DNA of 64,000 nucleotides from Phyllobates terribilis. Taxonomy: Eukaryota. The notes under the pieces are model-generated. The model saw nothing but the letters and a program-made list of their open reading frames with translations, searched no databases and was not told the DNA's origin. Below, piece by piece: positions 11,760 to 54,800 of the stretch (position 1 is its first letter; the number at the start of each line of letters is the position of its first letter). The DNA lies in the NCBI RefSeq assembly GCF_046119375.1, contig NW_027362816.1, positions 2,976,001 through 3,040,000 on the forward strand, read 5' to 3'. The translations under genes were made by a program, and so were the position numbers.

Positions 11760-11888
11760 TGCATAATTAATTTGCATTTTATTGCATGATATAAGTATTT
11801 GATCACCCACCAACTAGAAAGAATTCTGCTGGTTTTTCTTTAAGAAGCCCTCCTACACTGCATTCATAACCTGTATTAATTACACCTA
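11760..11888. mobile_element. Tc1 sub-terminal fragment fused to the 3' end of ZNF gene A
   Basis: ATAAGTATTTG...TTTAAGAAGCCCTCCT...CATTCATAACCTGTATTAATTACACCT resembles 45955..46065 of the Tc1 at 45766. Confidence 0.7.
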
Positions 11889-13152
11889 CATTTCCCACAT
11901 TCTGAACATGAAAAAGGCTTCTTCCCTGTGTGGGCTTTCTGGTGGCTATCAAGATACTCTTTCCGAATAAAACATTTCCCACATTCTGAACATGAAAAAG
12001 GCTTCTCCCCGGTGTGGGTTCTCTGATGTTTGAGAAGATTTGATTTGTCTGTAAAACATTTCCCACATTCTGAACATGAAAAAGGCTTCTCCCCTGTGTG
12101 GGTTTTCTGGTGGTTATTAAGATGCGCTTTCCGCATAAAACATTTCCCACATTCTGAACATGAATATGGCTTCTCCCCTGTGTGAGTTTTCACATGCTCA
12201 ATAAGATTTGTTCTCTGATAAAAACATTTCCCACATTCTGAACATGAAAAACGCTTCTCCTCTGTGTGGGTTCTCTGGTGTCGATCAAGATCCGCTTTCT
12301 GAATAAAACATTTCCCACATTCTGAACATGAAAAAGGCTTCTCCTCTGTATGGGTTTTCTGGTGGTTATTAAGATGCGCTTTCCGCATAAAACATTTCCC
12401 ACATTCTGAACATGAATATGGCTTCTCCCCTGTGTGAGTTTTCACATGCTCAATAAGATTTGATCTCTGATAAAAACATTTCCCACATTCTGAACATGAA
12501 AAAGGCTTCTCTGTGTGGGTTCTCTGGTGTCGATCAAGATCCGCTTTCCGAATAAAACATTTCCCACATTCTGAACATAAAAAAGGCTTCTCCCCTGTGT
12601 GGGTTTTCTGGTGGTTATCAAGGTGCTCTTTCCGAATAAAACATTTCCCACATTCTGAACATGAAAAAGGCTCCTTCCCTTTGTGGGTTTTCTGGTGGTT
12701 ATCAAGATACTCTTTCCGAATAAAACATTTCCCACATTCTGAACATGAAAAAGGCTTCTCCCCGGTGTGGGTTCTCTGATGTTTGAGAAGATTTGATTTG
12801 TCTGTAAAACATTTCCCACATTCTGAACATGAATATGGCTTCTCCCCTGTGTGAATTCTCTGATGTATAACAAGATCTGATTTACGATTAAAATGTTTAC
12901 AACATTCTGAACATGATAATGGCTTCACCCCTGAGTGAGCTCTCCGCTCCTTAGCTCCCTTTCTGTGCTCAACATTCTGTAATGAATCAGAAGATAGGAC
13001 CACTTGACCATAAAATAGATCTTTTCTGTGAAGGGCTGATGTTATATCTGAAGCAATGGCATGCTCTTCATATGTATCTGGTGTGATACCATGATCATCT
13101 GCTTTCAAATCTGAGGATATCATATGTCTTTCTGAGTTCATGGTAAAGGCAT
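11876..13152 (-). CDS. Zinc-finger exon of gene A (12 complete C2H2 fingers plus a truncated 13th)
   Basis: ORF 11876..13174 with CSECGKCF-x8-H-x3-H repeats and TGEKP linkers. Acceptor TTCTTGGCAG|AT at 13152. Confidence 0.95.
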
Positions 13153-16100
13153 CTGCCAAGAATAAAACAAACATATTTGTAATAATGTAACTGTATATTT
13201 ATATTGTTAATGTTATATTTATTAGGATTTCTATATGAAATAGCAAAATTCAGTTATTAACCAACTAAAAGTGTGATGCCAAAATAGATCTCAATCTATC
13301 GATAGAGCAAGATACTGATATTAAGACACTACACAGTTTTTCAGCAGTTTTCTGATTTCAGTGTTGATCCTTAAATGCACTTTAGCAGAGCAGGGCAGCG
13401 TGGTGGAGCAGGGCAGCGTGGTGGAGCAGGGAAGCGCGGTGGAGCAGGGCAGCGCGGTGGAGCAGGGCAGCGCGATGGAGCAGGGCAGCGCGATGGAGCA
13501 GGGCAGCACGGTGGGGCAGGGCAGCGCGGTGGAGCAGGGCAGCGCGGTGGAGCAGTATGGTAATGAACAGTAAAGGCCTGACATTAAACCAGATGCAAGC
13601 CTGAATTTATTAATTTATGTGCAATGACAATCTAAAATTATGTCATTCAGTCGAGGCGGAGTAGGAATTTTGTTACACAGCCACCATCTGCCTTTAGCAG
13701 TAGTGGCTGAGTGGCATTTAAATAGTTAGGTACACATTGCTTCCCCCCATGAGTTATTATTGCAGCTGTGGGTCTGGTAAAGTCCCCCGTGGCTGCCATG
13801 TTGGTCCCCAGTGGCTCCCAATGCGCGGACTGTGTACAGAAGACACTGACTGTATGACTGTATGATGTCAGCCAGGTGCGTTTCATTCTGAAATTCTGCG
13901 GCGTTTTAGAGAAATTCATACTTTAATAGACTAGTCGGACAGGCGGGTTCCCGGCGGCTTCTCTCTGCCCGCTGTCTTAGATTGACAGGCCTCTGCCTAC
14001 GTGATCTATTACTTGTATATGGGGAATTATTTTTGCATAACGAGCTGTGGTTTTTAATGGTGTTTTTTTTTGTGTTTTGGTCACTTTTTGATTTTTTTTT
14101 TTATTATGCAGAATAAGTAAAAGCTGCAATTCAGACAGTTTCTCTTTTTTTTTTAATTCTGTTCATCGTGCTACATAAATATTGAAATAGTTTTATACAT
14201 ACAACTTGTTATGAAAATGGTGATACCAAATATGCCAGGTTTGTTTTTCTTCTTTCAAATTAAGCTATTTTTTTATTGGCAGCATTGGCCATTTGGGGAT
14301 TTTTTTCTTGCATTGTTTAACACTTTTTTTAGACTTTATTTACAGAATAATATAATTAATTATTGAGATAATACAGTGCGGAACCACAAAATTTCACCCA
14401 GCATTTCAATTTTTGTTCTCAGATTTTTCATTATAAAGTCTTACTGATAACAGGATTATGACCGCACCCTGAGAGAGGGGATCCGCCCTTCAAGGACAGG
14501 AAACCTACAGGCTTAAAAGGTTGGCACCTCTCCTCCGCATCAGTTGGATTACAGCGCGTGATAGGACCTCCATTGGTTGTTGCCAAAACACAAATCTTAC
14601 CCGCACCACAAATCACAACTAAAACGGTGAACTTATAACACTAGTGAAAGAAGTGCTCACGCACACGTGACAGGAGGGATTATAAGGGTGCTGTCATGGG
14701 TTCTGAAAAAAATCATAAGACTCACCCATGACGGCACCATGACAGAATTATAGAGAAAATTAAGAATTTAGGGAGGGACCACAGCCTGGAGCACCCTTCT
14801 TTCAAAGGTGAGGCCATGCCATCAAATGAAGATTGGCTACTTGTGGATGGTGAATTAGCCCCAGAAAGGAGATTTGGAATCTGCGGGAGGACCCACAAGT
14901 CAGTGACAGACATTGTCCTCAACCATGAAAAGCCCCTGACATGATGGTAGTCTTCATAGGAGTCTTCTTACTGCCAACTCAACTGCAAGTAATTCCTTCA
15001 AGTTTGAAGAACAAAAAACTCTCTTGTCCCCGTCCAAAAGCCCTGGTTTACTACGTCTACTACGGAGCCCACCTGGACAGATTAGTGACACTCAGCCACC
15101 AAAGAAGGGACTGCATTGACATTGGGGATAGCATCAACCTTCCTTCCAGGTGTCCTCTAAAGGAAATGTAATTTCTTAACACATCCTACTGCAAGGCTCT
15201 AGTATGGAACTGGGCTCACAAGACTGCCGGAAGGCACAAAGTTAGAAACCTAGAAGGGACATAGCGCTTCTAAGGGACAGGATGGGGAATTTCAGGGCCC
15301 TTAACATCTGGCCTCGGATCTTTTCTTTTTTATCGCCTGGGAAATGATACTTCTGCACCTCTGAGTCCAGCAGTAGCCCCAAATATTACTGTATTTTTAG
15401 GGGCTCTATCTTTGACTTTTTAAGGTTCAATAGCCAACCTAAACATTCTTAGGTGGATATCACTTCCTGTAACTGACTAGTGCAATGCCAGGTCGAATTG
15501 CCTACAACCAGAAAATTATACAAATACAGGATAATCAATACATTCTTCTCCCGGAGACGGGCCATCACCTCTTCTGGGAAGAGTAACTTTATTGCAGATT
15601 TTACATATTCCATTTTGAATGAAAGGATTCTCAGGAATTTAATAAAGCCCTTCAAATGTATTATCATCCTGAAAGAGCAGTTTGGTTTCTTGATTAGAAA
15701 GAGAGGGGATTAAAATCCCTTCCCTCTTTCTGACACTGAAACTTCTAATAGGACAGCCTTCTGCACCAGCTGAGACTTTGGCCTCTGGGCCCGTTGCCCT
15801 GCTGACAAAGACCTAGAGGGAATTACCACGAATCTTCCATGCGGGATTGAGCGGAACTCCATTTCTAGACCGGATTTTATCAGGCCGAGAATCCAACTGT
15901 TTCCCGATATTTTTTCCCAGGCCGGGAAGAAGGACGAAAGTCTCCCCCCACCTGGGCTGGAAATCACTGACTTTTTTGGAATCCTGGGAAGAGGTTCCGA
16001 ACATGAAGCTGCTACCTTTTCTTCTTTGATCTTTCCATTTGTCTTGATCTGTGGAGGTCTTCCTTCAATTCAACCTTCTTTTCCGGAAGGATCGCTTGCA

Positions 16101-19100
16101 GGCTGGGATGGACAAGTTAGGATATCCCTTTTTAGCATTGCAAGCCTTTTCCAAAGCTGGGCCAAACAGGTGTTCCCCCTCACACGGAATGGCACACAGT
16201 CTCATTCTAGCCTGGAGTTTCCCTGGCCAACATTTTAACCATAAGTGTTTGAAATGTCTGCTGACCTTGCCGCTAAACAAACTTGAATCAGCCGAAGCGA
16301 AGATAGAAAAGCTGCAGCCCCTCGCATAAGTGGGACAGTGGCCAAGATATTGTGTCTTGACATAGTCTTGACATTGTGTCTTTTAACTGGGTTTCCAGAT
16401 GATCCAACCAGATGATTAAGGATCTGGCTGTACATGTAACAGCCATTGTTGGCTCTAGAGCACCAGTCAACATCTCCAATGTACATCTAAGCCGCCTTTA
16501 CTATGGCCGCATCCAGTTTTGGGGCTTTGTCCCTGTTTGACAAGGAAGGCTCATCCAAGGGATATTGTCACGGGTGTGTCGCCACGAAGATCGTCACGAT
16601 TACACAGCCTGACTTCTCGCAGCTGAGTTTTTGGTGTTTTGTGTTTTTCGGCAGTGAGAGAGTTAACTCTCTCTCTCTGTGCTAGACAAGGTCCAGCCTC
16701 GCCCAGCTGCAATCAATGCTGCAGTAGTGGGACTCCTTCAAATGCCTGCCGGTCTGTTAGGGTAGTGTCGGTGAAAGCATTTCATACAGACAAACAGAGC
16801 GGATCGTGGTATTTTGGAGTTCTGAGCTAAGTGTATTTGGTGTGGTTTTTCCCTTCCTCGCTTTATCATTTATCTCCTTTCCCGTTGGTGTTCCCTCTGT
16901 TGTTGTGGTGTAGTTTTTGTATACAAGGTGGTTTTTGGTTTAACCCTTGTACTGTCTCGTTCATCTAAGTACTGAGTGTTGGCATATTATTTCCTGTTCC
17001 CTATTGTTGTGATCGGGGTCCTTCTCAGGACCTCCTGTACGCAGAGACAGCGTGACATTTTCACCGACCCACTAAGATGCTCTCCAGCTACCATGGATCC
17101 AGTAGCCGGTCTAGCTCGGCAGTTGCAGAGTTTGTCCATGGAGCTGGCGGACGTTAGGTCCAAGGTTTTGTATCCCCAAGAGCAAGCAGGACCAGAACCT
17201 AAAGTAGCTCTCCCTGACAGGTTCACTGGGGGGCGGGACAAGTTTTTTTGTTTTCCGGGAGGCATGCAAGTTGTACTTTCGGCTGCGGCCTCGGTCATCG
17301 GGGAGTGAAGAACAAAGGGTGGGAATTGTCATCTCGCTCCTACAAGGGACCCACAATCTTGGGCATTCTCTCTTCCCCCGGGCTCCCCGGCTCTCCAGTC
17401 AGTGGATAGGTTTTTTGCAGCTCTGGGTCTCGTATATGATGACCCGGATCGGATCTCCCTTGCTGAATCTAAGTTACGTAGGATCCAGCAGGGAGATCGT
17501 CCGACGGAGGAATTCTGTTCGGAGTTCCGTAGGTGGGCCACGGACACCCAGTGGAATGACCCGGCTCTTAGGAGCCAGTTTTGTCAAGGTTTATCCGACA
17601 AATTAAAGGATGTTTTGGCACAGTATGACCCTCCCGCGTCACTGGAAGCCGTTATGGCCCTTGCTATTCGCATTGACAGACGGCTTCGGGAGAGGTGCGG
17701 GGTAACTCCACCCTCTGTGATGACTCCACCTTCTACAGGTGTTCCTTATATGGAGGGTTCCCTGGTCAGTCCAGAGGAGCCTATGCAATTAGGAGGGACA
17801 TCATTTCGGGGGAGGGGACCGGTGGTGCGCCATAAGACAGGAAGGTGTTTCTTCTGCGGGAGAAAGGGACATTTTATTGGGGAGTGTCCATCCCGTCCCT
17901 TGCAGAGTGAAGAGTCGTCGGAAAACTGTTGATCCCAGGTTGTGTGGTGGACGGCAATCTGGGAGTAGGTATTTCGTCCCTAGGTTCATCTCAGTTTCTC
18001 GTACCGGCGGAGGTGGTGGTGGGTACGAGAACTGAGAGGATATCTGTTCTTCTGGATAGTGGTGCCGGGGCTAATCTGGTGGACGCTCGGTTTGCCCGGG
18101 TTCAAGGTATGTGATTGAGTGAATTGGCTAAACCCATCCCCATATTCTCGATTGATGCCAGGCCCCTCGGTCAGGGAAGTTTTTTGCAATCTGTGCATAA
18201 CGTAAAACTTCAAGTGGGGGCTATACATAAAGAACTGTTGTCTTGCTACGTATTGGAGGGTCTTTCCACTCCTATAGTGTTGGGCCTTCCTTGGTTAATT
18301 ATGCATAACCCGGTTATTAATTGGCAATCCAGAGAGATAAGCCAATGGAGTAAATTCTGTAATAAAAACTGCATGAATACGGTCATCGGTGCGGTTACTC
18401 CTAGGGTCTTACCTCCATTTCTGGCGGACTTTGAGGATGTACTCTCGGAGAAAGGGTGTCAGGAACTACCTCCTCATCGCGAGTATGACTGTTCTGTAAA
18501 ACTGCTCCCTGAGGCCAAGTTACCTAAAGCTAGGTTGTATAACCTTTCTGGTCCTGAGAGGCAGGCCATGAAGGATTATATTTCTGAAAGTCTGGCTAAG
18601 GGGCATATTAGACCTTCATCTTCCCCGGTGGCCGCGGGGTTCTTCTTTGTGAAGAAGAAAGATGGAGGCCTACGCCCTTGCCTGGATTTCGGTGAACTTA
18701 ATCGGATTAAGGTCCGAGATCCGTATTTGCTCCCACTTATTCCCGATCTCTTTAATCAGATCGTGGGCGCCAAATGGTTCTCTAAGTTGGATCTCGGGGG
18801 GCGTACAATCTGATTAGGATGAAGGAGGGGGATGAGTGGAAGACGGCGTTTAACACTCCGGAGGGGCATTATGAGAACCTTGTCATGCCATTCGGTCTGA
18901 CTAATGCCCCGGCGGTGTTCCAACACTTTGTTAATGACATTTTTCGCCGCCTGGTGGGACAGTTTGTTGTCATATATCTGGATGATATCTTAATTTACTC
19001 GCCGGATCTGGTGTCTCATCAGGAGCACGTTAGGCAGGTGTTACAGATCTTGCGGGATAATAAACTGTATGCCAAATGGGAAAAGTGTGTGTTCGCCGTA

Positions 19101-22100
19101 CAGGAACTCCAGGCTTCCTGGTTTCAGCGTCCGGTTTTCGTATGGACCCTGGGAAAGTGCGGGCAGTTCTTGAGTGGGATCTGCCATAGAATCTTAAGGC
19201 ACTACAACGTTTCCTGGGGTTTGCTAATTATTACCGGAAGTTCATTCGTAATTTCTCGTCCATGGTTAAACCTCTCATAGACATGACAAAAAAGGGGACG
19301 GATTTTTCTAGGTGGTCTGACAAGGCTTGTCAAGCTTTCTCCTCCTTGAAAAAAGTTTTGCCTCGGCACCCATAATCATTCAACCTGATGCGTCACAGCC
19401 ATTCATTGTAGAGGTAGACGCTTCCGAGGTAGGGGTGGGAGCAGTATTGTCACAAGGTTCGTCCCCTGGTAAGTGGCATCCGTGCGCCTTTTTCTCTAAA
19501 AAATTGTCGTCCGCTGAGAGGAATTACGATGTCGGCAATAGGGAACTCTTGGCCATTAAGCTAGCTTTTGAGGAGTGGCGCCATTTTTTGGAGGGGGCAG
19601 TCCATCCGGTCACCGTCATCACCGATCACAAGAACCTGCTATATCTGGAGTCCGCAAAACGTCTGAATCCCAGACAAGCCAGGTGGTCGTTGTTTTTTAC
19701 CAGGTTTAATTTTGTCGTTACATATCGTCCTGGGTCAAAAAATGTGAAGGCGGATGCCTTATCTCGTAGTTTCCCTGGGGCCGGGAATACGGATGACCCG
19801 GTTCCTATCCTTCAAGAGGGGGTGGTGGTGTCGGTAGTATGCTCTGAGCTTGAGGAGGAGGTATTGGAGGCTCAGGGGGATGCCCCTGTTGGACCTCCAG
19901 GGAGACTGTTTGTTCCAGATCAGTTACGACAAAAGGTGATCGAGGCACACCATAACTCAGCTTTGGCAAGACACCCAGGGAGTAAAGCAACTGTGGATCT
20001 ACTCTCGCGTCGGTTTTGGTGGCCTAACTTACATATAGAGGTGGTAAATTTTGTTGCGTCCTGTGGGGTTTGTGCGCGCTCTAAGACCCCACATACCCGT
20101 CCGTCTGGGGCCATCTTACCTTTGAAGATCCCGGAGCGTCCTTGGACTCATCTGTCTATGGACTTTATTACGGACCTCCTGCCGTCTTCGGGTAAAACGG
20201 TCATTCTCGTTGTAGTAGACAGGTTCAGCAAGATGGCACATTTTATCGCTCTTCCTGCTCTTCCAAATGCTAAAACTCTTGCGCAGGTGTTCATTGGGGA
20301 GATTGTGAGGCTTCACGGGGTACCCTCCGATGTGGTGTCGGATCGGGGGTCTCAGTTTGTGTCCAAGTTCTGGAAGGCATTTTGTACTCGGCGGGGGATG
20401 CATTTATCGTTCTCATCGGCTTTTCATCCTCAGACCAATGGTAGACGGAACGTCTGAACCAGAGTTTGGAGACATATCTCCAGTGTTTTGTGTCAGAGAA
20501 CCAGGAGGACTGGGCTTCTTTCTTACCTCTGGCAGAGTTTGCTCTTAATAATAGGCGGAGCGAGTCCACTGGTAAGTCCCCGTTTTTTGGGGCATATGGT
20601 TTTCACCCCCAGTTTTGTACTTTCAGTAGGGGGGCTCTTCGGGGGTTCCTGAGGAGGAACGATTTTCCTCATCACTCACTTCAGTATGGAGAGGGGTGCT
20701 GAAGAATCTGAATACTATGGGGAACCGATACAAACGTATGGCTGATAGGAGGAGAGTGTCTGGTCCGGACCTAAGTGTGAACGATCGGGTATGGTTGTCT
20801 ACCAGGTATATAAAACTTAAGGTTTCCTCCTGGAAACTGGGTCCCAGGTTCATCGGGCCATACAGGATCAGTTCTATAATTAATCCAGTGGCATTCCATC
20901 TTGACCTCCCCCCTACGTTTAAAATTCACAATGTGTTCCACAGATCGTTGCTTAAGAGGTATGTGGCGCCGGTGATACCGTCACCTTTACCTCCCCCTCC
21001 AGTGGTGGTCAATGGTAACTTGGAGTTCCAGGTATCAAAGGTCATCGATTCACGCTTTAATCGCCGGTCCCTTCAGTACCTGGTTCATTGGAAGGGGTAT
21101 GGTCCTGAGGAGAGGATGTGGGTTCCTGCGTCGGATATTAACGCAGACCGATTAGTTCGGGCCTTCCACACGACTCACCCGGATAAACCTGGCCCTGAGG
21201 GTCCGGAGGCCCCTCGTAGAAGGGGGGGTACTGTCACGGGTGTGTCGCCACGAAGATCATCACGATTACACAGCCTGACTTCTCGCAGCTGAGTTTTTGG
21301 TGTTTTGTGTTTTTCGGCAGTGAGGGAGTTAACTCTCTCTCTCTGTGCTAGACGAGGTCCAGCCTCGCCCAGCTGCAATCAATGCTGCAGTAGTGGGACT
21401 CCTTCAAATGCCTGCCGGTCTGTTAGGGAAGTGTCGGTGAAAGCATTTCATACAGACAAACAGAGCGGATCGTGGTATTTTGGAGTTCTGAGCTAAGTGT
21501 ATTTGGTGTGGTTTTTCCCTTCCTCGCTTTATCATTTATCTCCTTTCCCGTTGGTGTTCCCTCTGTTGTTGTGGTGTAGTTTTTGTATGCAAGGTGGTTT
21601 TTGTTTTAACCCTTGTACTGTCTCGTTCGTCTAAGTACTGAGTGTTGGCATATTATTTCCTGTTCCCTATTGTTGTGATCGGGGTCCTTCTCAGGACTAG
21701 ATTACTGAGGTGCAGGGATCCTCAGGAGGTAGGGGTTACGCTGGCGGCCTGGACCTCTGTACCTTTAACAGTACCTCCAGGTAGAGGGATTAGTCAGGGC
21801 CCCAGCTTAGGGTCAGTTTAGGCCCCAGACCTCCTGTACGCAGAGACAGCGTGACAGATATCTCCTCTTAATTGATGGGGAAAGGGAGCCTCTCTTTTCC
21901 ATTCCCTCTAAATTATTTTTTCATTCATAGGAAATGACCTATGCTTTTTTTGTTCCAAGCCTCCAAACATAATGTCCTGAACTGATTTCTCGAGTTTGGA
22001 CTCGACTATCCCCATTGTGGTCCAAACTGCCTTTACGAGTTTGTCCATCTCATCTATAGGAAAACAAAGATGGCCAGCATTACCGTCTGAGGAGGATTCG

Positions 22101-29588: not shown

Positions 29589-29760
29589 ATGGCTGCTCGG
29601 TGCGCACAGGAGCTGTGATGAGGTCACAGGAGGGGAGGAGTCAGGGGTCACATGATCAGGGGCCTCAGTGGATGCAGGACTCTGCTGTGCTGGTTGTCAT
29701 GGTGCTGGATGAGCTGAAGTTTATGTGTGGGGTCAGGAGGGGTTTACAGTGTGGATGTAG
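29589..29760. promoter_or_regulatory. Conserved upstream module of ZNF A (putative promoter/5' region)
   Basis: Near-identical copies at 47536..47709 and 60261..60437, each upstream of a ZNF paralog. Contains GTCACATGA (E-box), and copies A and C are preceded by AAGATGGC (YY1-like). Function is inferred. Confidence 0.55.
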
Positions 29761-30030
29761 CAGAGCCGCGTGTGTACGAGGTGTACGGAGCAGAGCCGCG
29801 TGTGTACGAGGTGTACGGAGCGGAGCCGCGTGTGTACGAGGTGTACGGAGCAGAGCCGTGTGTGTACGAGGTGTACAGAGCGGAGCCGCGTGTGTACGAG
29901 GTGTACGGAGCGGAGCCGCGTGTGTACGAGGTGTACGGAGCGGAGCCGTGTGTGTACGAGGTGTACAGAGCGGAGCCGCGTGTGTACGAGGTGTACGGAG
30001 CGGGGCCACGTGTGTACGAGGTGTACGGAG
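29761..30030. repeat. CpG-rich 30-bp VNTR, ~9 units
   Basis: Unit GTACGAGGTGTACGGAGC(A/G)GAGCCGCGTGT. Confidence 0.95.
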
Positions 30031-30275
30031 AGGAGTATCCCGAGTTATCTATCTGCACCATCTGAATAGAGCGAGTTCTGTGTCACTAAGATGAATGATG
30101 ATGGGAGTGTATGAAGCTGTCAGTTTCTATGCACCTTCACTTACTTCACTATGGCTGTATACATGTGTGTATGTATTTCAGCCATTAACTCCTTGTTCGG
30201 TCTAAGATGATGTAAGGTGGCTTTCGGACACACAGTTGATGGGAGGTATATATCACAGAGGTGGTTGTCCTAGAC

Positions 30276-37384: not shown

Positions 37385-37912
37385 TAGGCAACAACCCATT
37401 AATCAGCACATTGTCTGTTTGCCCCTGCTAAGTGAGCACAGGAAGGTGGGGGCCAGGAGTGCTTTGGTCACATCACAAAATGTCCAACAATATGTGATCC
37501 ACAATATTCACCCCACTTTGTAACATTATGTCCCATTAGCTGCATAGGTGCTACGACAACCCCCATGTGGAAAAATCTTGGAGTACGGGGTTGATCCATC
37601 ACAGGTAAATTTGCAATAAAAAAGATGGCATCACTTGCTAACTTCTGCGATCAACCAGTGAGGAGTTATCGCAGAAAATTAGAGATTGAATAAAACCAAG
37701 AAGGGCGGAGACCAGCCCACGTGAGGTCATCACAGGGGAGTGTGTGGGCAGCGCCCCCGTCGGCATAAAAGATCAGGCCGAATATTGATCTATACTCATG
37801 CCGGGTTATACATATTTGTGTAAGCGGGGGTCCTGTTCCATAACGGTTCGTTTGAGTGCTTCCCTCCAGCTAAACTGAATGGTCTCTGCGATCGGCCTAG
37901 TAAGTCCTTCTA

Positions 37913-40900
37913 TTAATCCCTTTTTATTTTGTGTAACTGTATATGCTGTATTAAACATGAACCCTGGGTGAAACATTTCCCACATTCTGGACATGAATAT
38001 GACTTTTCTCCAGTGTTAATTCTTTGATGTTTTTGAAGATCTGGTTTCCGGATAAAACATTTCCCACATTCTGAACATGAATATGGCTTCTCTCCTGTAT
38101 GACTTCTGTAATGTTTATGAAGATCTGGTTTCTGGGTAAAACATTTCCCACATTCTGGACATAAATATGGCTTTTCTCCAGTGTGAATTCTTTGATGTTT
38201 TTGAAGATCTGGTTTCTGGATAAAACATTTACCACATTCTGGACATAAATGTGGCTTTTCTCCAGTGTGAATTCTTTGATGTCTTTGAAGATCTGGTTTC
38301 CGGATAAAACATTTCCCACATTCTGAACATGAATATGGCTTCTCTCCTGTGTGAATTCTTTGATGTTTATGAAGATCTGATTTCTGGAGAAAACATTTCC
38401 CACATTCTGAACATGAATATGGCTTCTCTCCTGTATGACTTCTGTAATGTTTAAGCAAATCTGACTTATTGCTGAAACATTTCGCACATTCTGAACATGA
38501 AAATGGCTTTTCTCCTGTGTGACTTCTTTGATGCATAAGCAATTTAGATTTATGTTCAAAACATTCCCCACATTCTTGACATAAATATGGCTTTTCTCCA
38601 GTGTGAATTCTTTGATGTTTATGAAGATCTGGTTTCTGGATAAAACATTTCCCACATTCTGAACATGAATATGGCTTCTCTCCTGTGTGAAATGTTTGAT
38701 GTTTATGAAGATCTCGTTTCTGGATAAAACATTTCCCACATTCTGAACATGAATATGGCTTCTCTCCTGTATGACTTCTGTAATGTTTAAGCAAATATGA
38801 CTTATCGCTGAAACATTTCCCACATTCTGAACATGAAAACGGCTTTTCTCCTGTGTGACTTCTCTGATGTGAAAGCAATTTATATTTAGTTTTAAAACAT
38901 TTCCCACATTCTGAACAGGAAAATGGTTTCTTCCCTGTGGGAATTATTTGATGTTCGACATCCCTTCTCTGGCTTTCATTTTGCTTAACAGTCTGTGATG
39001 AATCCAAGTAGATGACAGATTGAAAAGGCTCAGATGATTGATTTCTGCTCTGAAGGGCTGGAGGTATAGCTGGAATAATGGCACGCTTTTCATAGGTATC
39101 TGGTTTGACACCACAGTCATCTGCCAAGAATAAATCTGATTTTATTATTTTTTAATATCAATGCCTTATATTTTATAACATTTCTCTATACATAATTCTA
39201 TACAAATCAAAGTATAATGAAACTATGACCTAAGACAGTGGTGAGCCACCTGTGCACAAATCCCATGGTACTGAACCCCTAACGTACCATCGACGAACAT
39301 AATACATATACGCAGAAACTTTTGAGGCAATAAAGGGAGGATTAAAAATAAGCTTTATTACATTACAATCTAAAGCAACAGAGAAAAATACACGCCATAA
39401 AAACAATGAAGATGGGGTATTCCCATCTCTGAGAAACTATACCAATATGTAGTAGGTATAATAAAAATAAGATTAGCAAATATCTCCAATTACAAATGTA
39501 GTATAGTTCTTTTGATTCGCTATGTCGCTTACCCCATGTTCAGGGCATTGCAAGTTAGTTGCTAGTGGTCATAACTATGGATACCTAAGCTACTGCAATG
39601 CTCTGCACATGGGATAAGTGACAAAGAATCAGGAGAACTATACCACATTTCTAATTGGAGTCTGAATAAACCTCGACCTCACACATCGACAGGTACTCCG
39701 AGTGTCCTGGGATCACCACGCTGACGTAGCGACCCTCCATCCCCTTACAGCAAAAGGACATGGTGGCAGAGACCACATTTGTGACTGTGCCGCACACTGG
39801 AATGTTATTGTCAGGGGAGTTCCCGATTCGGACCTCGGCCCCCATCAGTCGCTCCAGACCACAGTCCATCCTGTTAGTTATGGCGATGCTGGATATCTTG
39901 TAGCTCTGGCCCAGGTCCAGCTTCCACCAGGGATCCTTCTCCAGGTTGGTGTGGGTGCAGAAGCCACTACTGAAGTCGGTGTCTTTGTTCCCATCGATGG
40001 CGTTCTTAGCCAATATGCTCCTGGTGGCATACGGATAGTCCGACACCTGGGAGGCCACTCTGGTCCTTGCTATGTTTGTGGCTACAGGTGCCGGAGCGCA
40101 TCCCAGAGCCAGAACCACAGATCCCAGTAGAATCAGAGAAGATGGGGGTCGGTACGTCAGCGTGGTGATCCCAGGACACTCGGAGTACATTTCTAATTGG
40201 AGGCATTTTCTATTATTATTATCCTACCTACTATATTTTGGGATAGGATTTTGGAGGTGAGAATACCCCTTCAAGGCTGTATGCTTAGGACTTATCCAGG
40301 ACTCATCCAGATGCCTCATTCCATTGTTTTTTGTGATTACGTTTATCCCTCTTAAATGGCTTTTTGTATTTTTATGTGTTTTCAACTGCGATCTAATAAA
40401 TTGTATTTTTAATCTCTATATTGTCTCACATTTCTCTGTACACAGTCATGGTTGAAATAGTTGACGCCCTTAAAATTGTTCCAGAAAATGAAGTATTTCT
40501 CCTAGAACATTATTGCAATTACACCTGTTTTGTTATAGACACGTTTATTTCCTTTGTGTGTATTGTCACTGATCTTTTCTAGTGAAATGTTCAATGGAGA
40601 ATCAAAACTGGACCTTGACCAGATTATTACCTGACCCTACTTCTAAACCCTTTTCTGATCTGCCTACATACTTCTTGTTGACCGCAGAATGGTTTGGCTT
40701 CTCACTTGACTGTCCTTCCGGGACGTGTACTGCTGCTAGATATTGACCTTGGCTTCTCCAGCTTAGATGTTCACCTGCCTGACTTCTGTGTGTGGCCCGG
40801 CTCTCTTCTTGACATTCAGCTGTAATCTGGCAACTCACAACTACATTACAATTGGAGACATGGCGCCTTTCTGCAGCAAATAAAATCCCATTTAACCAAT

Positions 40901-43269: not shown

Positions 43270-44640
43270 TAAATGGAGTGGGGGGAGGATGAGCTGCACA
43301 TGATGGGGAATTGGGAGTGGAGGGAGGATGAGCTGCACATGGTGGGGAATTTGGAGTGGGAGGAGGATGAGCTGCACATGGGGAATTGACAGTGGGGGAG
43401 GATGAGCTGCACATGGGAATTAGCAGTTGGGGGAGGATGAGCTGCACATCATGGGGAATTTGGAGTGGGAGGAGGATGAACTGCACATGGGGAATTGGCA
43501 GTGGGGAAGGATGAGCTGCACGTGATGGGAAATTGGGAGGGGGGAGAGGATGAGCTGCACATGATGTGGAATTTGGAGTGGGAGGAGGATGAGCTGCACA
43601 TGGGGAATTGGCAGTGGGGGAGGATGAGCTGCACATCGGGAATTATCAGTGGGGGATGATGAGCTGCACGTGATGGGGAATTGGGAGTGGGGAGAGGATG
43701 AGCTGCACATGATGTGGAATTTGGAGTGGGAGGAGGATGAGCTGCACATGGGGAATTGGCAGTGGGGGAGGATGAGCTGCACATGGGGAATTATCAGTGG
43801 GGAGAGGATGAGCTGCACGTGATGGGGAATTGGGAGTGGGGAGAGGATGAGCTGCACATGATGGGGAATTTGGAGTGGGAGGAGGATGAGCTGCATATGG
43901 GGAATTGGCAGTGGGGGAGGATGAGCTGCACATGGGGAATTAGCTGCACATGGGAAATTGGCAGTGGGGGAGGATGAGCTGCACATGGGGAATTATCAGT
44001 GGGGGAGGATGAGCTGCACATGGGGAGTTGGCAGTGGGGGAGGATTAGCTGCACATGGGGAATTAGCAGTGGGGGGAGGATGAGCTGCACGTGATGGGGA
44101 ATTGGCAGTGGGGGAGGATGAGCTGCACGTGATGGGGAATTGCCAGTGGGGGGTGGATGAGCTGCACATAATGATGAGTTGGGAGTGGGGGGAATGTTGG
44201 GTGTGGTGAGGAGGATGAACTGCACATGGGGAATTGGCAGTAGGGGGAGGATGAGCTGCACGTGATGGGGAATTGGCAGTGGGGGAGGATGAGCTGCACG
44301 TGATGGGGAATTGCCAGTGGGGGGTGGATGAGCTGCACATAATGATGAGTTGGAAGTGGGGGGAATGTTGGGAGTGGTGAGGAGAATGAACTGCACATGG
44401 GGAATTGGCAGTGGGGGGTGTGAGCTGCACATGGGGAATTGGGAGTGGAGGGGTGAGCTGCACATGGAGGATTGAGAGTGGGGGGAGGATGAGCGCATGG
44501 TGGATTGGGAGTGGTGGGTGGGAAGAGCGAACGGTGAATTAGGGGTGGGGAGAGCAAATGGTGGATTGAAAAGTGGGAGTGGGGAAAGCACATGATGAAT
44601 TGGGAGTGGGGTGGGGAAAGCAAATGGTGAATGGGGGATG
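43270..44640. repeat. G-rich minisatellite, ~34-37 bp unit GGGGAGGATGAGCTGCACATGGGGAATTGGCAGT
   Basis: Tandem array seen directly inside the hAT element. Confidence 0.92.
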
Positions 44641-47709: not shown

Positions 47710-48782
47710 CAGAGCCGCGTGTACGAGGCGTACGGAGCGGAGCCGCGCGTGTACGAGGCGTGCGGAGCGCAGCCGCGCGTGTACGAGGCGTGCGGAGCGC
47801 AGCCGCGCGTGTACGAGGCGTGCGGAGCGCAGCCGCGCGTGTACGAGGCGTGCGGAGCGCAGCCGCGCGTGTACGAGGCGTGCGGAGCGCAGCCGCGCGT
47901 GTACGAGGCGTGCGGAGCGCAGCCGCGCGTGTACGAGGCGTGCGGAGCGCAGCCGCGCGTGTACGAGGCGTGCGGAGCGCAGCCGCGCGTGTACGAGGCG
48001 TGCGGAGCGCAGCCGCGCGTGTACGAGGCGTGCGGAGCGCAGCCGCGCGTGTACGAGGCGTGCGGAGCGCAGCCGCGCGTGTACGAGGCGTGCGGAGCGC
48101 AGCCGCGCGTGTACGAGGCGTGCGGAGCGCAGCCGCGCGTGTACGAGGCGTGCGGAGCGCAGCCGCGCGTGTACGAGGCGTGCGGAGCGCAGCCGCGCGT
48201 GTACGAGGCGTGCGGAGCGCAGCCGCGCGTGTACGAGGCGTGCGGAGCGCAGCCGCGCGTGTACGAGGCGGACGGAGCCGCGCGTGTACGAGGCGGACGG
48301 AGCCGCGCGTGTACGAGGCGGACGGAGCCGAGCCGCGCGTGTACGAGGCGGACGGAGCCGAGCCGCGCGTGTACGAGGCGGACGGAGCCGAGCCGCGCGT
48401 GTACGAGGCGGACGGAGCCGAGCCGCGCGTGTACGAGGCGGACGGAGCCGAGCCGCGCGTGTACGAGGCGGACGGAGCCGAGCCGCGCGTGTACGAGGCG
48501 GACGGAGCCGAGCCGCGCGTGTACGAGGCGGACGGAGCCGAGCCGCGCGTGTACGAGGCGGACGGAGCCGAGCCGCGCGTGTACGAGGCGGACGGAGCCG
48601 AGCCGCGCGTGTACGAGGCGGACGGAGCCGAGCCGCGCGTGTACGAGGCGGACGGAGCCGAGCCGCGCGTGTACGAGGCGGACGGAGCCGAGCCGCGCGT
48701 GTACGAGGCGGACGGAGCCGAGCCGCGCGTGTACGAGGCGGACGGAGCGGATCTGCGCGTGTACGAGGCGGACGGAGCGGAG
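47710..48782. repeat. CpG-rich 30-bp VNTR, ~36 units in two homogenised blocks
   Basis: Block 1 GTACGAGGCGTGCGGAGCGCAGCCGCGCGT (to ~48270), block 2 GTACGAGGCGGACGGAGCCGAGCCGCGCGT. Confidence 0.97.
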
Positions 48783-48914
48783 CTAAGTTACGTCGCCTCC
48801 TTCTTTCTTTCAATTGGAAACAGAGAGATTTTCTTTGAGGTGCTCAAAGAAAGAAAGAGAGCCTCCTCCACTTAATTATATTATTTACTTTACTGGCTTT
48901 TATGGTGAGCTGGT

Positions 48915-49945
48915 TTTACACCAGGAGAGCCTCCTCCATTATATCTGAGGTACACAGGGAGCGCCTACTCCATTTTATCTGAGGTACACCTGGAGAGCCT
49001 CCTCCATTTTACCTGAGGTACACCAGGAGAGCCTCCTCCATTTTATCTGAGGTACACAGGGAGCGCCTACTCCATTTTATCTGAGGTACACCTGGAGAGC
49101 CTCCTCCATTTTACCTGAGGTACACCGGGAGGGCCTCTTCCATTTTACCTGAGATATACCTGGAGAGCCTCCTCCATTTTACCTGAGGTACACCGGGAGA
49201 GCCTCTTCCATTTTACCTGAGGTACGCCGGGAGAGCCTCTTCCATTTTACCTGAGGTACGCCGGGAGAGCCTCTTCCATTTTACCTGAGGTACGCCGGGA
49301 GAGCCTTCTCCATTTTACCTGAGGTACGCCTGGAGAGCCTCCGACATTTTACCTGAGGTACGCCTGGAGAGCCTCCGACATTTTACCTGAGGTACGCCTG
49401 GAGAGCCTCCGACATTTTACCTGAGGTACGCCTGGAGAGCCTCCGACATTTTACCTGAGGTACGCCTGGAGAGCCTCCGACATTTTACCTGAGGTACGCC
49501 TGGAGAGCCTCCGACATTTTACCTGAGGTACGCCTGGAGAGCCTCCGACATTTTACCTGAGGTACGCCTGGAGAGCCTCCGACATTTTACCTGAGGTACG
49601 CCTGGAGAGCCTCTGACATTTTACCTGAGGTACGCCTGGAGAGCCTCTGACATTTTACCTGAGGTACACCGGGAGAGCCTCTTCCATTTTACCTGAGGTA
49701 CACCGGGAGAGCCTCTTCCATTTTACCTGAGGTACACCTGGAGAGCCTCTTCCATTTTACCTGAGGTACACCTGGAGAGCCTCTTCCATTTTACCTGAGG
49801 TACACCTGGAGAGCCTCTTCCATTTTACCTGAGGTACACCTGGAGAGCCTCCTCCATTTTACCTGAGGTACACCGGGAGAGCCTCCTCCATTTTACCTGA
49901 GGTACGCCTGGAGAGCCTCCTCCATTTTACCTGAGGTACACTGAA
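48915..49945. repeat. 34-bp minisatellite TTTTACCTGAGGTACGCCTGGAGAGCCTCCGACA, ~30 units
   Basis: Head-to-tail units with no unique spacers. Confidence 0.95.
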
Positions 49946-51839
49946 ATAGAGCACATCTTCCATTGTACCCGATGAAAACCGAGCATCCTCCATTTTATCT
50001 CAGGTAGGCTTTGTAAAAGCTCACAGGTTTTTCAATGTAGGGCCTCATTCAGACGTCAGTGATTTTTCTCATACTTAACAATCCAGTCTTATTTTCCTCA
50101 GTGTTTTGGATCAGATTTTCATCAGCGTTTGGTTTTTCAGAGTTGTCATAACGGTAAAAGGTGAACTTTGACACATCATGGGCCTCTTTGGCGCCATTAT
50201 TTGAATGCCCCTCTTATAAAGCTGTCTGACTGTTATATGTGTCTACATGTGGTTATATCCTTAAGAAGTGTCAACTTCGAAAGGTGTCGATAATAAAACG
50301 ACAATTAATACAGTTCTGTGTATCCTGATCCTTTCATCAATCTACCAGCAGCGTGGACCATCCATGTTTTTCCTCCATCTACTTTGGTTTGGTCTGACAA
50401 CCTGTGGATCTGCAGCAGCTGATTACCTACGTCTTGATAACTGTTTTGTGAACACAGCCATACCAGGTTAGCAGAACCCTGTTAAAAATATTTTATTTCA
50501 TACCGGATAAGTCCCTATCGCACTTTCGCTCCTGAGCTCTTGTACAACTTTTAAACATCAGTGATTTTCTCATATTCCCCAATGTGACGACACAGCATTT
50601 GTTCTTGATTAAGCCAGACGTGCTTCTTTGGTGGGTCAAGAAACATAGGCCATTGTTATATGAGCCTTAACGTTGACTCTTGAGTTGACGTTTGTTTCAG
50701 CATATTGTCTTGCTATCCGTGGATGACAGGAACGCAGGTCATTGAACAATTGATTTTTGCTAATATGTTGCTACCATTGTATCAGTCCAGGCAACTTGTT
50801 TACTTGCTAGCAGGGAAGGACAAACTATGCAGTTTGATTAAATACTCAAACAATGAGAGTTGACCACATCTCACCTTCCCCCGGACCTGTGGATGATGGC
50901 CTGAAGAATAGTTGTGACCTATTGAAGGGGGGTGGGGGGGGGAATCTGCCTCTGTTCCCCAGACAGAGAATCTACAGGACGCCAGCTTAAGGGACCACAG
51001 TCCTAGCTGGAAGAATTCAGATCTGCTCAATTGACCATCACCTAACCCTCAAAAACGTTTTGAAGAATCCAGGTTGGGACAATCAGGTCACAGCCTTACC
51101 AAAACCAGGTCAGATCACCAAAGGCAGCATTTGTGTGCAATGTTGATGCTACACAGCCACTCACATATCTGACAATTCATGGAGGCGGTGTTTTGCACCT
51201 GTGCGGCCCCCGCCTTTATCATGGGGTCTGCCGCGTCCGGCTTGTGCTTTGGTGATCTGACCTGGTGTTGGTAAGGCTGTTTTTTTCTTTTTCTGTGATT
51301 TTTTTTGACAATCAGGTCACCAGGCCACATACCTCACTGCACTCGGTTAGCTTCCTAAACTTGCCACTACCTCCTCTCTGTGGGTGCCCGCCAAAAGCTG
51401 GGTGCTACTGGTTGGGGTAGTAGGCATTGGATGCCCTGAAGTCACAGCTGCTCTAATTCCGGCGCGCCAGCGGAAGGGTGAGACTCTGTCTTTTGCACCA
51501 TCTTGTGTATTTGCTGGGACTGTCCTATTTATTATTGTCTGTTTGGTGGTTCAATAAAGTAGTGCCACACTGTTTTACCCTCACCCTATGCTGTTTCAGT
51601 AATATTATGCCCATGGGGAAGGAGTGTGGGAATTCAATGGGATGAGTCCTGGCCGATGCGGTCTATCTAAAGACAGCGGGGCTGTGAACGAGACCACCCA
51701 CAGACCCTCATCTCTTCACACTCCCCCCCCCCCCCCCCAAAAAAAAAGAAGATTTGGCCCAGGACTTTCCCAGTGATTGACAAGTTCCTCCCATAGCGTG
51801 AGACTTGGAGCAGTGTTGAGACAAAGATCTAACTATTGT

Positions 51840-54800
51840 GCCAGAGTCACTGGTATGGTATATGAAGGGAGGTATGTGTCACACTGGTTGCTAGCCTATG
51901 TGAACTAGAACCAATAAACTTTCTGCCAGCATTTTATATGCTGGGGGTTAACTCTTAAAAAGCGTGGTTTTATCGGAATGACAGAGATGGGAGGGATGTC
52001 ATTCCCCATACCTCCACCTCAGGGTGTGGCTGAACAATGTTTAAATGTTCAGTCCTGGTTTTTTTTCTCTGTTGTGAGTTTGGAGTGGCAAAGACTCCAG
52101 ACTGGAAGACCACAGCTCAGAGAGGAGCTGAATGCTGGGACTACAACCTGTGTGGCTAATCCCACACTGCTATGGACTGTGCTTTCGTTTATCTTTTGTT
52201 TTGTTGTTTTGCCAGTAAGGCTGTGTTTAGTTTTGCTGGAGCTGCGGAGATTTATGGCACTAAATAAAGGCTGCAGAGAAAACACGGTTCCTGAGTCTAC
52301 TTCCGGAAGCGACCAAGTGAGGCGTTTTATCTTACCACAGCTGGTGGAGAATGCGGGCAAGATTCCAGGAACACGTGTACCTGCTACAGAGACCGGTGGA
52401 TTTCTTGGGTGAAGGCTGCCAGCCAGCAGGAGACGTCCGGCACCATGGAAGAGCTAATTAAGCACCTGGTGCAGAGCCAGCAGACCATGCAGTAGCAGCA
52501 GTTGCAGAGCATGCAGCAGAGAATGCAACAGCAGCACCGTGAGCAGCTACAGCAGCAACAAGAGACCACTAAGCTGCTGATACAACAAGTTCAGCTCCAG
52601 AAACCGCAGCAACAGGATCAGCATCACCAATAACAGCAGATCGAGTTACTTTTAGAGGCGATCCGTGGCAAGGCGACGGCTTCCGTCAAGTCCAAGTGAT
52701 GATGCATACATCAGGAAGACGGTAAGGAAAGCGTTACAGAAGATGACCCCGGGGCATGATATTGAGGTGTTCCTGACTGTTTTTGAGAGGGTAGCGGAAC
52801 GGGAGAAATTGCCGCTGGAGCAGTGGGTGGAGGTTCTGGCGCCATATTTGACTGGGGACCCGCAGAAGGCTTATTACAATTTGACATTACAGGACGCAAA
52901 GGAATATGCCAAATTAAAAACCAAAATATTGGCACGCTCAGGAGTGACTATGTCTGTCAGAGCACAAAGGGTCCACCACTGGGCGTATGCTGGCGACAGA
53001 CCTCCACGCTCACAAATGTTTGACTTGTTACATCTTGTCCAGAAATGGCTGCAGCCAGAGTCTTCCTCTCCTGCCCAGATGGTTGAGCGTGTGGTAATGG
53101 ACAGGTTCATCCATTCCCTACCCAGGCCGGTGCAGACCTGGGTTGCCCAGGGCGACCGTCGGAATGCAGACGACCTCATAGGTCTTGTAGAGAGATTCCA
53201 AGTGGTTGAAAAATCCCTGGGGATACCCGAGATAGCCAGCTCCCCTTACTGGAGTGCCCAAAAGGGAGTGGGTTCACCACGGAAGGGGTTAAGAGCCACA
53301 ACTGGGGGCATTCCACTTCCACTGAAGGGGCTGCAAGGTCTGTTGTGAAGGATGTGACCTGTTGGCGATGTCGCAATCCGGAACACGTAGCCACCCAGTG
53401 TCATACGTCTGCTGAGCCAATGGACTGCAGTCTAGGGAGACGATGTTCATACTATGCTTACCCAGCCTGCAGTGTGGACTGTCAACCCGGCGAGGGGCCG
53501 CAGGTGTGTGCCGTGTCCGTTAAAGGAGTGATGAACCTAGTGACCTCGATCAGTGCCACCCTTCCCCACCAGCTGATCCCCGCCAGATCTTTGGGCATCC
53601 GCTCCATACATGGGGATGCCAAGAACTACCCGGTGGCCAGAGTGACAGTCGAAACAGACTGTGGCGCCCAATCCCACGAGGTCGGGTTGGTCAAGGACCT
53701 GATACATTCCGTCATATTGGGGCACGATTTTCCCTTGTTCTGGGATTTGTGGGGGAAGGGATCCAGACTCCATCACGGAGACAAAAGCCAGGACCCTAGA
53801 AATACCTCGGTCGACATTGGAAGTGGATCGGTTTCCACTGTGTGTCCTTGTCGGTGAGGACGAGACTGTGACTGAGGAGGCCGACCTCCCTGAGTTAGAG
53901 GTGCCCGGAGAGAACTTTGGGGCAGCTCAAGTTCGGGACTTGACCTTGAAAGGGGCGTGGGACAATGTTACGGTTTGTAATGGTGTTGCTCAAGAGTCGG
54001 GGGCGGTACCCACACTTTGCAATTCAGGGGGTACCAGGTAACCAAACAAAGGTGAAGAGGTAGTGGAACAGCTGTTAGTTCCTGGGCCATACCGTCGGAG
54101 GGTATTAGATATGGCCCACTCACATATTCTAGGGGGGGGGGGGGGACACCTAGGGGTTGAAAAAACTCAGGAGCGAATAGTGAGGAGGTTTTATTGGCCA
54201 GGATGCTACCGGGAGATCTTAAACTATTGTAGGTCCTGCCCCACCTGCCAGATAACCGAGTCCACCTCCCAAGTCCGTAGTCCCTTAGTTCCACTACCTG
54301 TGATAGAAGTTCTCTTTGAGAAGATTGCCATGTACCTCGTGGGTCCCTTAATTAAATCGGCCCAGGGCCATCAATACATCTTGGTCGTCATGGACTATGC
54401 GACCCGGTACCCCGAAGGGGTACCCTTACGGAACTTAGCTCGGGAACTTGTCAACATCTTTGCTAGGACCGGCCTGCTGAAGGAAATCCTGACGGACCAA
54501 GGAACCCCATTCATGAGCAAGGTGATGAAGGAGCTGTGCAAAGTGCTTTAGATCAGGGTTCCCCAACTCCAGTCCTCAAGGCCCACCAACAGGTCATGTT
54601 TTCAGGATTTCCTTAGTATTGCACAGGTGATGGAATTATTGCCTGTGCAGGTGATGGAATTATCACCTGTGTAATACTAAGGAAATCCTGAAAACATGAC
54701 CTGTTGGTGGGCCTTGAGGACTGGAGTTGGGGAACCCTGCTTTAGATTACTCAGCTGCGAACCTGCGTTTGCCATCTGCAAACTGATGGCCTGGTGGAGC

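What the first reader, a model, noticed from the sequence alone, without database searches (positions are those of the whole stretch)
16735..17068. Gypsy element with a Tf1-type self-priming signature instead of a tRNA primer-binding site
Seen: no TGG-type PBS follows the 5' LTR. Instead TTTCACCGAC (17059..17068, 1 nt after the LTR) is perfectly complementary to GTCGGTGAAA inside the LTR (16767..16776), which starts 30 nt after a TATA-like TTCAAAT (16737). Established: fission-yeast Tf1 primes minus-strand synthesis with the first ~11 nt of its own transcript, and vertebrate chromodomain elements of the Tf1/sushi group are proposed to do likewise. Inference: transcription starts at about 16767 and the RNA folds back to self-prime.
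Basis: partly seen in the sequence, partly recalled or inferred. Interest (0 to 1): 0.7.

Follow-up and report, generated by a model that had tools for sequence, protein, structure and literature searches.

The report
Self-priming Tf1/sushi retrotransposon, amphibian
This broken jumping-gene copy has, where a host tRNA would normally bind, ten letters that pair with a spot in its own end-repeat, and sister families keep the pairing with different letters, so the group likely starts copying itself with its own RNA, a trick already described for this kind of element.

Summary
Observation confirmed. The element (16566-21856, TSD GATAT, Gag-RT-RH-IN-SH3-chromodomain, reading frames broken) has no TGG after the 5' LTR. 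TTTCACCGAC (17059-17068) is the exact complement of GTCGGTGAAA (16767-16776), which lies 30 nt after TTCAAAT. Of 93 assessable family copies, 79 pair perfectly and 9 more with G-U. In an alignment of 22 copies from three sister families, 5 of 10 pairs show double-sided changes (94.5% of cells paired; 0/500 shuffles); this helix ranks first of 167,910 possible. A TATA box sits 26-34 nt upstream in 10 of 15 family representatives (0.42 expected), and TTCAAAT aligns with TATAAAT of sisters. The start site, RNase H cleavage and priming are inferred from Tf1, not shown. Tf1's flanking 'pretzel' arms were not distinguishable from chance. Self-priming is the published hallmark of the Tf1/sushi group, vertebrates included, so this is a new member of a known kind with good comparative support. 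The scan noted the same signature before in this genome (e1-9302274) and others.

The parts
16561..16565 (+). Left target-site duplication GATAT
   Evidence: matches 21857-21861
16566..17057 (+). 5' LTR, 492 bp, TGTCACG...CGTGACA; lacks 133 bp of U5 (present at about 21695-21827 in the 3' LTR; junction near 17028/17029)
   Evidence: 7 mismatches in 492 aligned bases to the 3' LTR
16737..16743 (+). TATA-position element TTCAAAT (weak; homologous to TATAAAT/TATATAT of sister families)
   Evidence: alignment A1
16767..16776 (+). Predicted self-primer = predicted first 10 nt of the transcript (GTCGGTGAAA)
   Evidence: the start site itself is inferred
17058..17058 (+). 1-nt spacer T between LTR end and PBS (can wobble-pair with G16777; not conserved as a pair across families)
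17059..17068 (+). Primer-binding site TTTCACCGAC, complementary to 16767-16776; not a TGG-type tRNA site
17093..17932 (+). gag (PEG10-like capsid, CCHC knuckle), broken into two frames in this copy
   Evidence: PF03732 E 1.3e-9; zf-CCHC_2 below cut-off; PDB 7LGA PEG10, E 5.7e-13
18115..19280 (+). pol, first part, with reverse transcriptase, in two frames
   Evidence: RVT_1 E 1.1e-25 in 18786-19277
19321..20457 (+). RNase H, integrase zinc finger and core
   Evidence: (best solved relative Ty3 Gag-Pol 7Q5B, E 3.2e-48)
20630..21292 (+). Integrase C-terminus: SH3_Tf2-1 and chromodomain, in a separate frame
   Evidence: PF24626 E 1.6e-18; PF00385 E 8.7e-13
21218..21228 (+). Polypurine tract AGAAGGGGGGG, 3 nt before the 3' LTR
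21232..21856 (+). 3' LTR, 625 bp, with the second copy of the 10-mer at 21433-21442
21857..21861 (+). Right target-site duplication GATAT

Best explanation
This is a broken copy of a chromodomain-bearing Gypsy retrotransposon, likely of the Tf1/sushi group, whose primer-binding site is the exact complement of a 10-mer in its own LTR, and its family likely primes reverse transcription with its own RNA. Shown: the anatomy, the complement, its conservation in the family, double-sided changes between sister families, and the spacing of about 30 nt from a TATA-position element. Inferred: Pol II starts at G16767. Nt 1-10 fold back onto the PBS across about 420 nt of R-U5 (291 nt in this deleted copy). 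As in Tf1, the element's RNase H would cut after nt 10 or 11, and the new 3' end would prime minus-strand DNA into U5. Copying of the primer during plus-strand synthesis may rewrite the PBS, which would explain how often both sides change together (untested). This copy cannot make intact proteins and has multiplied with a segmental duplication, not by transposition.
For: Exact complement at the stated places. The helix has mean pair probability 0.97 when the leader is folded from 16767 (L006 = window copy; MFE). Family: 79 of 93 assessable unique copies pair 10/10 and 9 more with G-U; the LTR 10-mer is the most conserved block nearby (0.994 against 0.90-0.97). Alignment A1, made by sequence alone: 94.5% of 220 cells paired, 5 of 10 pairs and 24 cells changed on both sides, 0/500 shuffles reach these cell counts or the covariation score, slid controls 22-59%; top of 167,910 possible 10-column helices, 0.88 against 0.64 for the next independent one. 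Sister pairs on the Gag tree differ by one double-sided change: GCTAGAGTAT/ATACTCTAGC against GCTTGAGTAT/ATACTCAAGC, and GCGCTCAGAT/ATCTGAGCGC against GCGCTCTGAT/ATCAGAGCGC. TATAWAW at 6 of 7 or better lies at -34..-26 in 10 of 15 representatives, 0.42 expected. Chromodomain and PEG10-like Gag. Literature.
Against: No start-site or primer data exist here. Within the focal family there is no double-sided change; 5 of 93 copies carry a mismatch, and the sample leans to young copies. The focal TATA scores only 5 of 7, and 5 of 15 representatives fail the TATA test. One copy of 22 is discordant (L210). Single column pairs did not rank at the top of an all-against-all scan (the best four ranked 214-649 of 75,566; best rank 9 with strict pairs), and the number of changed pairs alone was not above shuffles (133/500). 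The shuffle control ignores relatedness. Outside A1 the LTR site was found by looking for the best complement, so only the TATA spacing is independent there. The whole leader folds no better than shuffles (z -0.6). The helix was weak (probability under 0.5) in 6 of 24 folded leaders. Flanking arms scored no better than control segments.
Confidence: 0.88

Rival explanations
1. The 10-bp duplex is real and selected, but serves another role (RNA circularisation, packaging, translation control), while a different primer starts DNA synthesis.
For: Covariation shows pairing or templated copying, not priming as such. Tf1's flanking arms were not confirmed.
Against: The 3' strand sits exactly at the PBS position, 1-2 nt after the LTR, in every family where it was found, and the 5' strand at the predicted RNA start. 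No TGG site exists. This geometry is the one shown to prime Tf1.
Confidence: 0.06
2. A host RNA in trans (a half-tRNA or another small RNA ending in the same ten letters) primes, and the LTR match is incidental.
For: Half-tRNA priming exists in some Copia lineages. The host tRNA set could not be obtained: only tRNA-Lys(UUU) came back.
Against: More than 15 different PBS 10-mers each match their own LTR; a trans primer would not require that. A CCA 3' end is excluded by the lack of TGG.
Confidence: 0.03
3. Chance complementarity in one LTR, inherited by all copies.
For: A 10-mer match in one element has odds near 1e-3, and the family is invariant at these sites.
Against: Double-sided changes between sister families, the top helix rank, and the TATA spacing.
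Confidence: 0.01

Closest known systems
Tf1/Tf2 of Schizosaccharomyces pombe (with Tj1, Tosmo1-3, Tcry1)
   Same: Chromovirus; PBS just after the 5' LTR complementary to the predicted RNA 5' end; TATA box upstream of the self-primer; no tRNA site.
   Different: The duplex is 10 bp here against 11 in Tf1: the 11th position is a wobble in 8 and a mismatch in 7 of 15 representatives. The loop runs 200-950 nt. Gag has a CCHC knuckle, which fission-yeast elements lack. The three-duplex 'pretzel' was not confirmed. Priming is shown by experiment only for Tf1.
Vertebrate Tf1/sushi group (GyDB V-clade: sushi-ichi, Amn-ichi/ni/san; Butler et al. 2001, not read, cited through PMC6317226 and bioRxiv 2022.12.06.519325)
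   Same: Vertebrate host, chromodomain, PEG10-like Gag, LTR ends fitting the Sushi motifs TGTYANR...CNTNACA (PMC3601003 Table 3), predicted self-primer of at least 10 nt starting 0-5 nt after the LTR (criterion of PMC6317226).
   Different: No named reference sequence was available, so placement by RT-IN tree is untested. The family itself was not matched to a named element.

Membership tests
Ty3/Gypsy chromovirus | LTRs TG...CA with TSD, gag then RT-RNase H-integrase, PPT | tested here: met
Ty3/Gypsy chromovirus | Chromodomain at the integrase C-terminus | tested here: met
   PF00385 E 8.7e-13, above cut-off
Tf1/sushi group | No tRNA PBS (no TGG after the 5' LTR) | tested here: met
Tf1/sushi group | At least 10 nt starting 0-5 nt after the LTR complementary to a site in the LTR | tested here: met
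   criterion from PMC6317226
Tf1/sushi group | The complementary site is the 5' end of the transcript | tested here: inconclusive
   TATA spacing supports it; only contigs were available, which cannot show starts
Tf1/sushi group | Three-duplex 'pretzel' with arms on both sides of the PBS | tested here: inconclusive
   Arms predicted in some copies, but candidates score 0.89-0.90 against 0.84-0.91 for control segments and show no clean covariation
Tf1/sushi group | RNase H cleavage releases the primer, which primes minus-strand DNA | not testable with these tools
   shown for Tf1 (PMC7175516 passage)
Tf1/sushi group | Monophyly with sushi-ichi/Tf1 in an RT-IN tree | not tested
Indirect: the only PDB hit of Gag is PEG10 and the LTR ends fit the Sushi motifs
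Tf1/sushi group (non-yeast members) | Gag-Pol made by -1 frameshift | not tested
   GGAAAAC lies just before the gag stop; its likeness to a slippery site is recalled, and this copy's frames are broken
tRNA-primed Gypsy elements | PBS complementary to a tRNA 3' end (TGG...) | tested here: not met

The most novel reading that the evidence does not exclude
Amphibian Tf1/sushi elements use a simplified self-priming: a fixed 10-bp duplex that starts at a G placed 30-31 nt below the TATA box and closes loops of 200-950 nt without Tf1's conserved pretzel arms. The PBS is rewritten from the primer in each round, so primer and PBS drift together quickly. Such primer-PBS pairs would give base-exact start-site predictions for many thousands of vertebrate LTRs.
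Probability: 0.3. Interest if true: 0.5.

Novelty: new member of a known kind. Interest (0 to 1): 0.27.

Why it matters
Self-priming in vertebrate elements has been 'implicated' from sequence, with experiments only in yeast Tf1 (PMC4600332 passage). This genome supplies many natural primer/PBS variants, several of them sister pairs differing by one double-sided change. That is strong comparative support and a ready panel for a direct test. It does not change what is believed about the group.

Tried and rejected
RNA evidence: no run on record as RNA was listed. The four guessed-RNA runs laid were contigs, which cover the LTR but cannot show a start. Host tRNA set: the Rfam tRNA search scored 63 candidates, and the 16 loci scanned held only tRNA-Lys(UUU). 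A pattern for the 10-mer before a T-arm gave 0 hits, but its control also gave 0, so it is uninformative. Rfam scan of 16400-17300: three weak matches, all far below gathering scores; no ribozyme. Pretzel arms: several alternative partners, no better than controls. One candidate partner of the LTR end lies in the 133 bp missing from this copy's 5' LTR, so no claim is made on the effect of the deletion. The top hits of PF03732 and PF24626 lay on tiny contigs and were left out of the counts (L091-L150). P0001 and P0002 as queries returned mostly the focal family. Protein homologue search gave six unnamed proteins. One search used a faulty anchor and was redone. One search's PBS column had a gap artefact and was redone. 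The Gag tree is the quick version with short rows. Primary papers were not held: Butler 2001, Lin and Levin 1997 and 1998, Levin 1996, Atwood-Moore 2006, Esnault and Levin 2015.

Full report
Observation. The element runs 16566-21856 between GATAT duplications. The 5' LTR is 492 bp and the 3' LTR 625 bp; they differ at 7 of 492 aligned bases and by 133 bp of U5 missing on the 5' side. No TGG occurs in the 20 nt after the LTR. The duplex is exactly 10 Watson-Crick pairs, with a possible G.U at position 11.

Anatomy. Pfam finds Retrotrans_gag, RVT_1, RNase H, integrase zinc finger and core, SH3_Tf2-1 and a chromodomain, in that order, over six frame pieces, so the copy is broken. The only solved relative of Gag is PEG10; the best of RH-IN is Ty3. 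The genome has 10.6 Gb; an amphibian host is my inference. The same insertion with the same flank occurs at 9 places on 8 smaller contigs. In all 5 other places examined, the 10-kb stretches on both sides match the window in long blocks at 96-99.9%. These are segmental copies and were counted once. A Gag motif shared by the focal and nearby families has 7,427 matches; 20 of the first 30 belong to the focal family.

Conservation in the family. Both sites were anchored by flanking sequence only. Of 101 unique copies, 8 lacked an anchor. Of the other 93, 79 pair 10/10, 9 pair fully with G-U and 5 have one mismatch; none shows a double-sided change. The sample leans to young copies because most came from protein searches. 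The LTR 10-mer is the best-conserved 10-nt block in its 100-nt neighbourhood. At the TATA position, 61 of 94 copies read TTCAAATG and others TTCATAT, TTTATAT or TTCAAATA.

Covariation. From 29 loci of the sister family, 8 had no PBS anchor, 3 had lost the R region and 1 was left out for a long insertion. The remaining 17 were aligned by MAFFT with 4 focal-family copies and one further relative (A1). The two 10-mers fall in shared columns. 94.5% of 220 cells pair; 5 of 10 pairs and 24 cells change on both sides. None of 500 shuffles reaches the paired share, the cell count or the covariation score, though 133 reach the number of changed pairs. Slid partners pair in 22-59%. The helix ranks first among 167,910 possible 10-column helices, although single pairs do not top an all-against-all scan. 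One row (L210) is discordant. Most other departures are CpG-type changes.

More distant families. Elements fetched through DUF4939, SH3_Tf2-1 and a second Gag pattern gave further pairs, each matching its own LTR. Examples: GCCCGAGCAA/TTGCTCGGGC, GCGCTCAGAT/ATCTGAGCGC, GCGCTCTGAT/ATCAGAGCGC, GCTAGAGTAT/ATACTCTAGC, GCTTGAGTAT/ATACTCAAGC, GCCTGAGTAT/ATACTCAGGC and GCTTGTGTAT/ATACACAAGC. Many older loci gave no clear LTR end; only 10 of the first 30 DUF4939 loci showed a perfect 10-mer. For these families the LTR site was picked as the best complement, so the independent test is position: TATAWAW at 6 of 7 or better starts 26-34 nt upstream in 10 of 15 representatives, against 0.42 expected. The focal family is among the five that fail, and three others have TACTTAA at -31/-32. 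All 15 start with G, and none has a Watson-Crick 11th pair. On a quick Gag tree, two sister pairs with support of 99-100 differ by one double-sided change.

Structure. Folded from 16767, the leader forms the helix with mean probability 0.97 in the window copy, and at 0.66 or more in 18 of 24 leaders. Tf1 needs two further duplexes flanking the PBS. Constrained folds predict such arms in some copies, but candidate arms score no better than control segments. This stays open.

Mechanism. Shown: geometry, conservation, covariation and TATA spacing. Inferred from Tf1 (first 11 nt pair with the PBS, RNase H cuts between 11 and 12): transcription from G16767, fold-back, cleavage after nt 10 or 11, and priming into U5. 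My own inference, untested: plus-strand copying of the primer would write the primer's sequence into the PBS, so covariation may be partly templated rather than selected. Either way it implies that the RNA 5' end acts as primer.

Rivals. A full tRNA 3' end is excluded by the missing TGG. A half-tRNA could not be checked, but cannot explain a match of each PBS to its own LTR. A non-priming role for the duplex remains possible until a primer is seen.

Literature and novelty. I saw passages only of PMC6317226, PMC3601003, bioRxiv 10.1101/2022.12.06.519325, PMC4600332, PMC7175516 and PMC2864245; other papers only as search listings; no supplements. They state that self-priming is a common feature of Tf1/sushi elements, from yeast to vertebrates, citing Butler et al. 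2001, which was not held. Searches found no paper showing covariation or an experimental test in vertebrates, but the library lacks the key papers, so absence from print is not claimed. Earlier scan notes report the same signature in this genome and others.

Verdict. A real feature, well supported, of a known kind. Interest 0.27.

Noticed in passing
window 3490-33387 and G000 C391, C200, C60, C36, C56 (second place), C186, C119, C116: The element lies in a segmental duplication of about 30 kb or more, seen at 9 places on 8 smaller contigs; 96-99.9% identity in long blocks in the 5 examined.
   Followed up: partly
window 11876-13198 (-), and 84-bp repeats at 37889-39028: A 440-aa open frame of tandem C2H2 zinc fingers and a second 84-bp array: the duplicated unit looks like part of a zinc-finger gene cluster.
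   Followed up: no
window 15449-16069 (-): Broken frames resembling the start of a DIRS-type reverse transcriptase (likeness recalled; no Pfam hit). The Gypsy element may have inserted into a DIRS-like element.
   Followed up: partly
window 54069-54539 (+): A second, distant Gypsy-type integrase fragment, 27% identical to the focal one.
   Followed up: partly
L191 and L182 (family E): The letters after the LTR, GTATCAGAGC, equal 10 letters of the TGGTATCAGAGC site seen in L108 (its reading as a plant-type tRNA-Met PBS is recalled), yet they pair with the element's own LTR. Six of 9 anchored copies have T at one of these positions. Possibly a vestige of tRNA priming, possibly chance.
   Followed up: partly
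L091-L150, contigs C2755-C8306: The best Pfam hits for Retrotrans_gag and SH3_Tf2-1 lie on tiny contigs; three such Gags form a distant clade and 1 of 60 loci has a TGG-type PBS. These contigs may be foreign DNA in the assembly.
   Followed up: partly
L284-L288, L292, L297: A very young sister family: LTR pairs 98.4-100% identical and many 1,499-codon open frames, with its own primer/PBS pair.
   Followed up: partly
G000 C1:816.9-817.9 Mb and C11:574.0-575.8 Mb: Long arrays of tRNA-Lys(UUU) genes, spaced about 1,050 bp on C1.
   Followed up: no
window 29600-30170, from 47580 onwards, 48780-50070, 43320-44450: Tandem repeats of 30, 34 and about 35 bp; the 30-bp array occurs in more than one place.
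   Followed up: no
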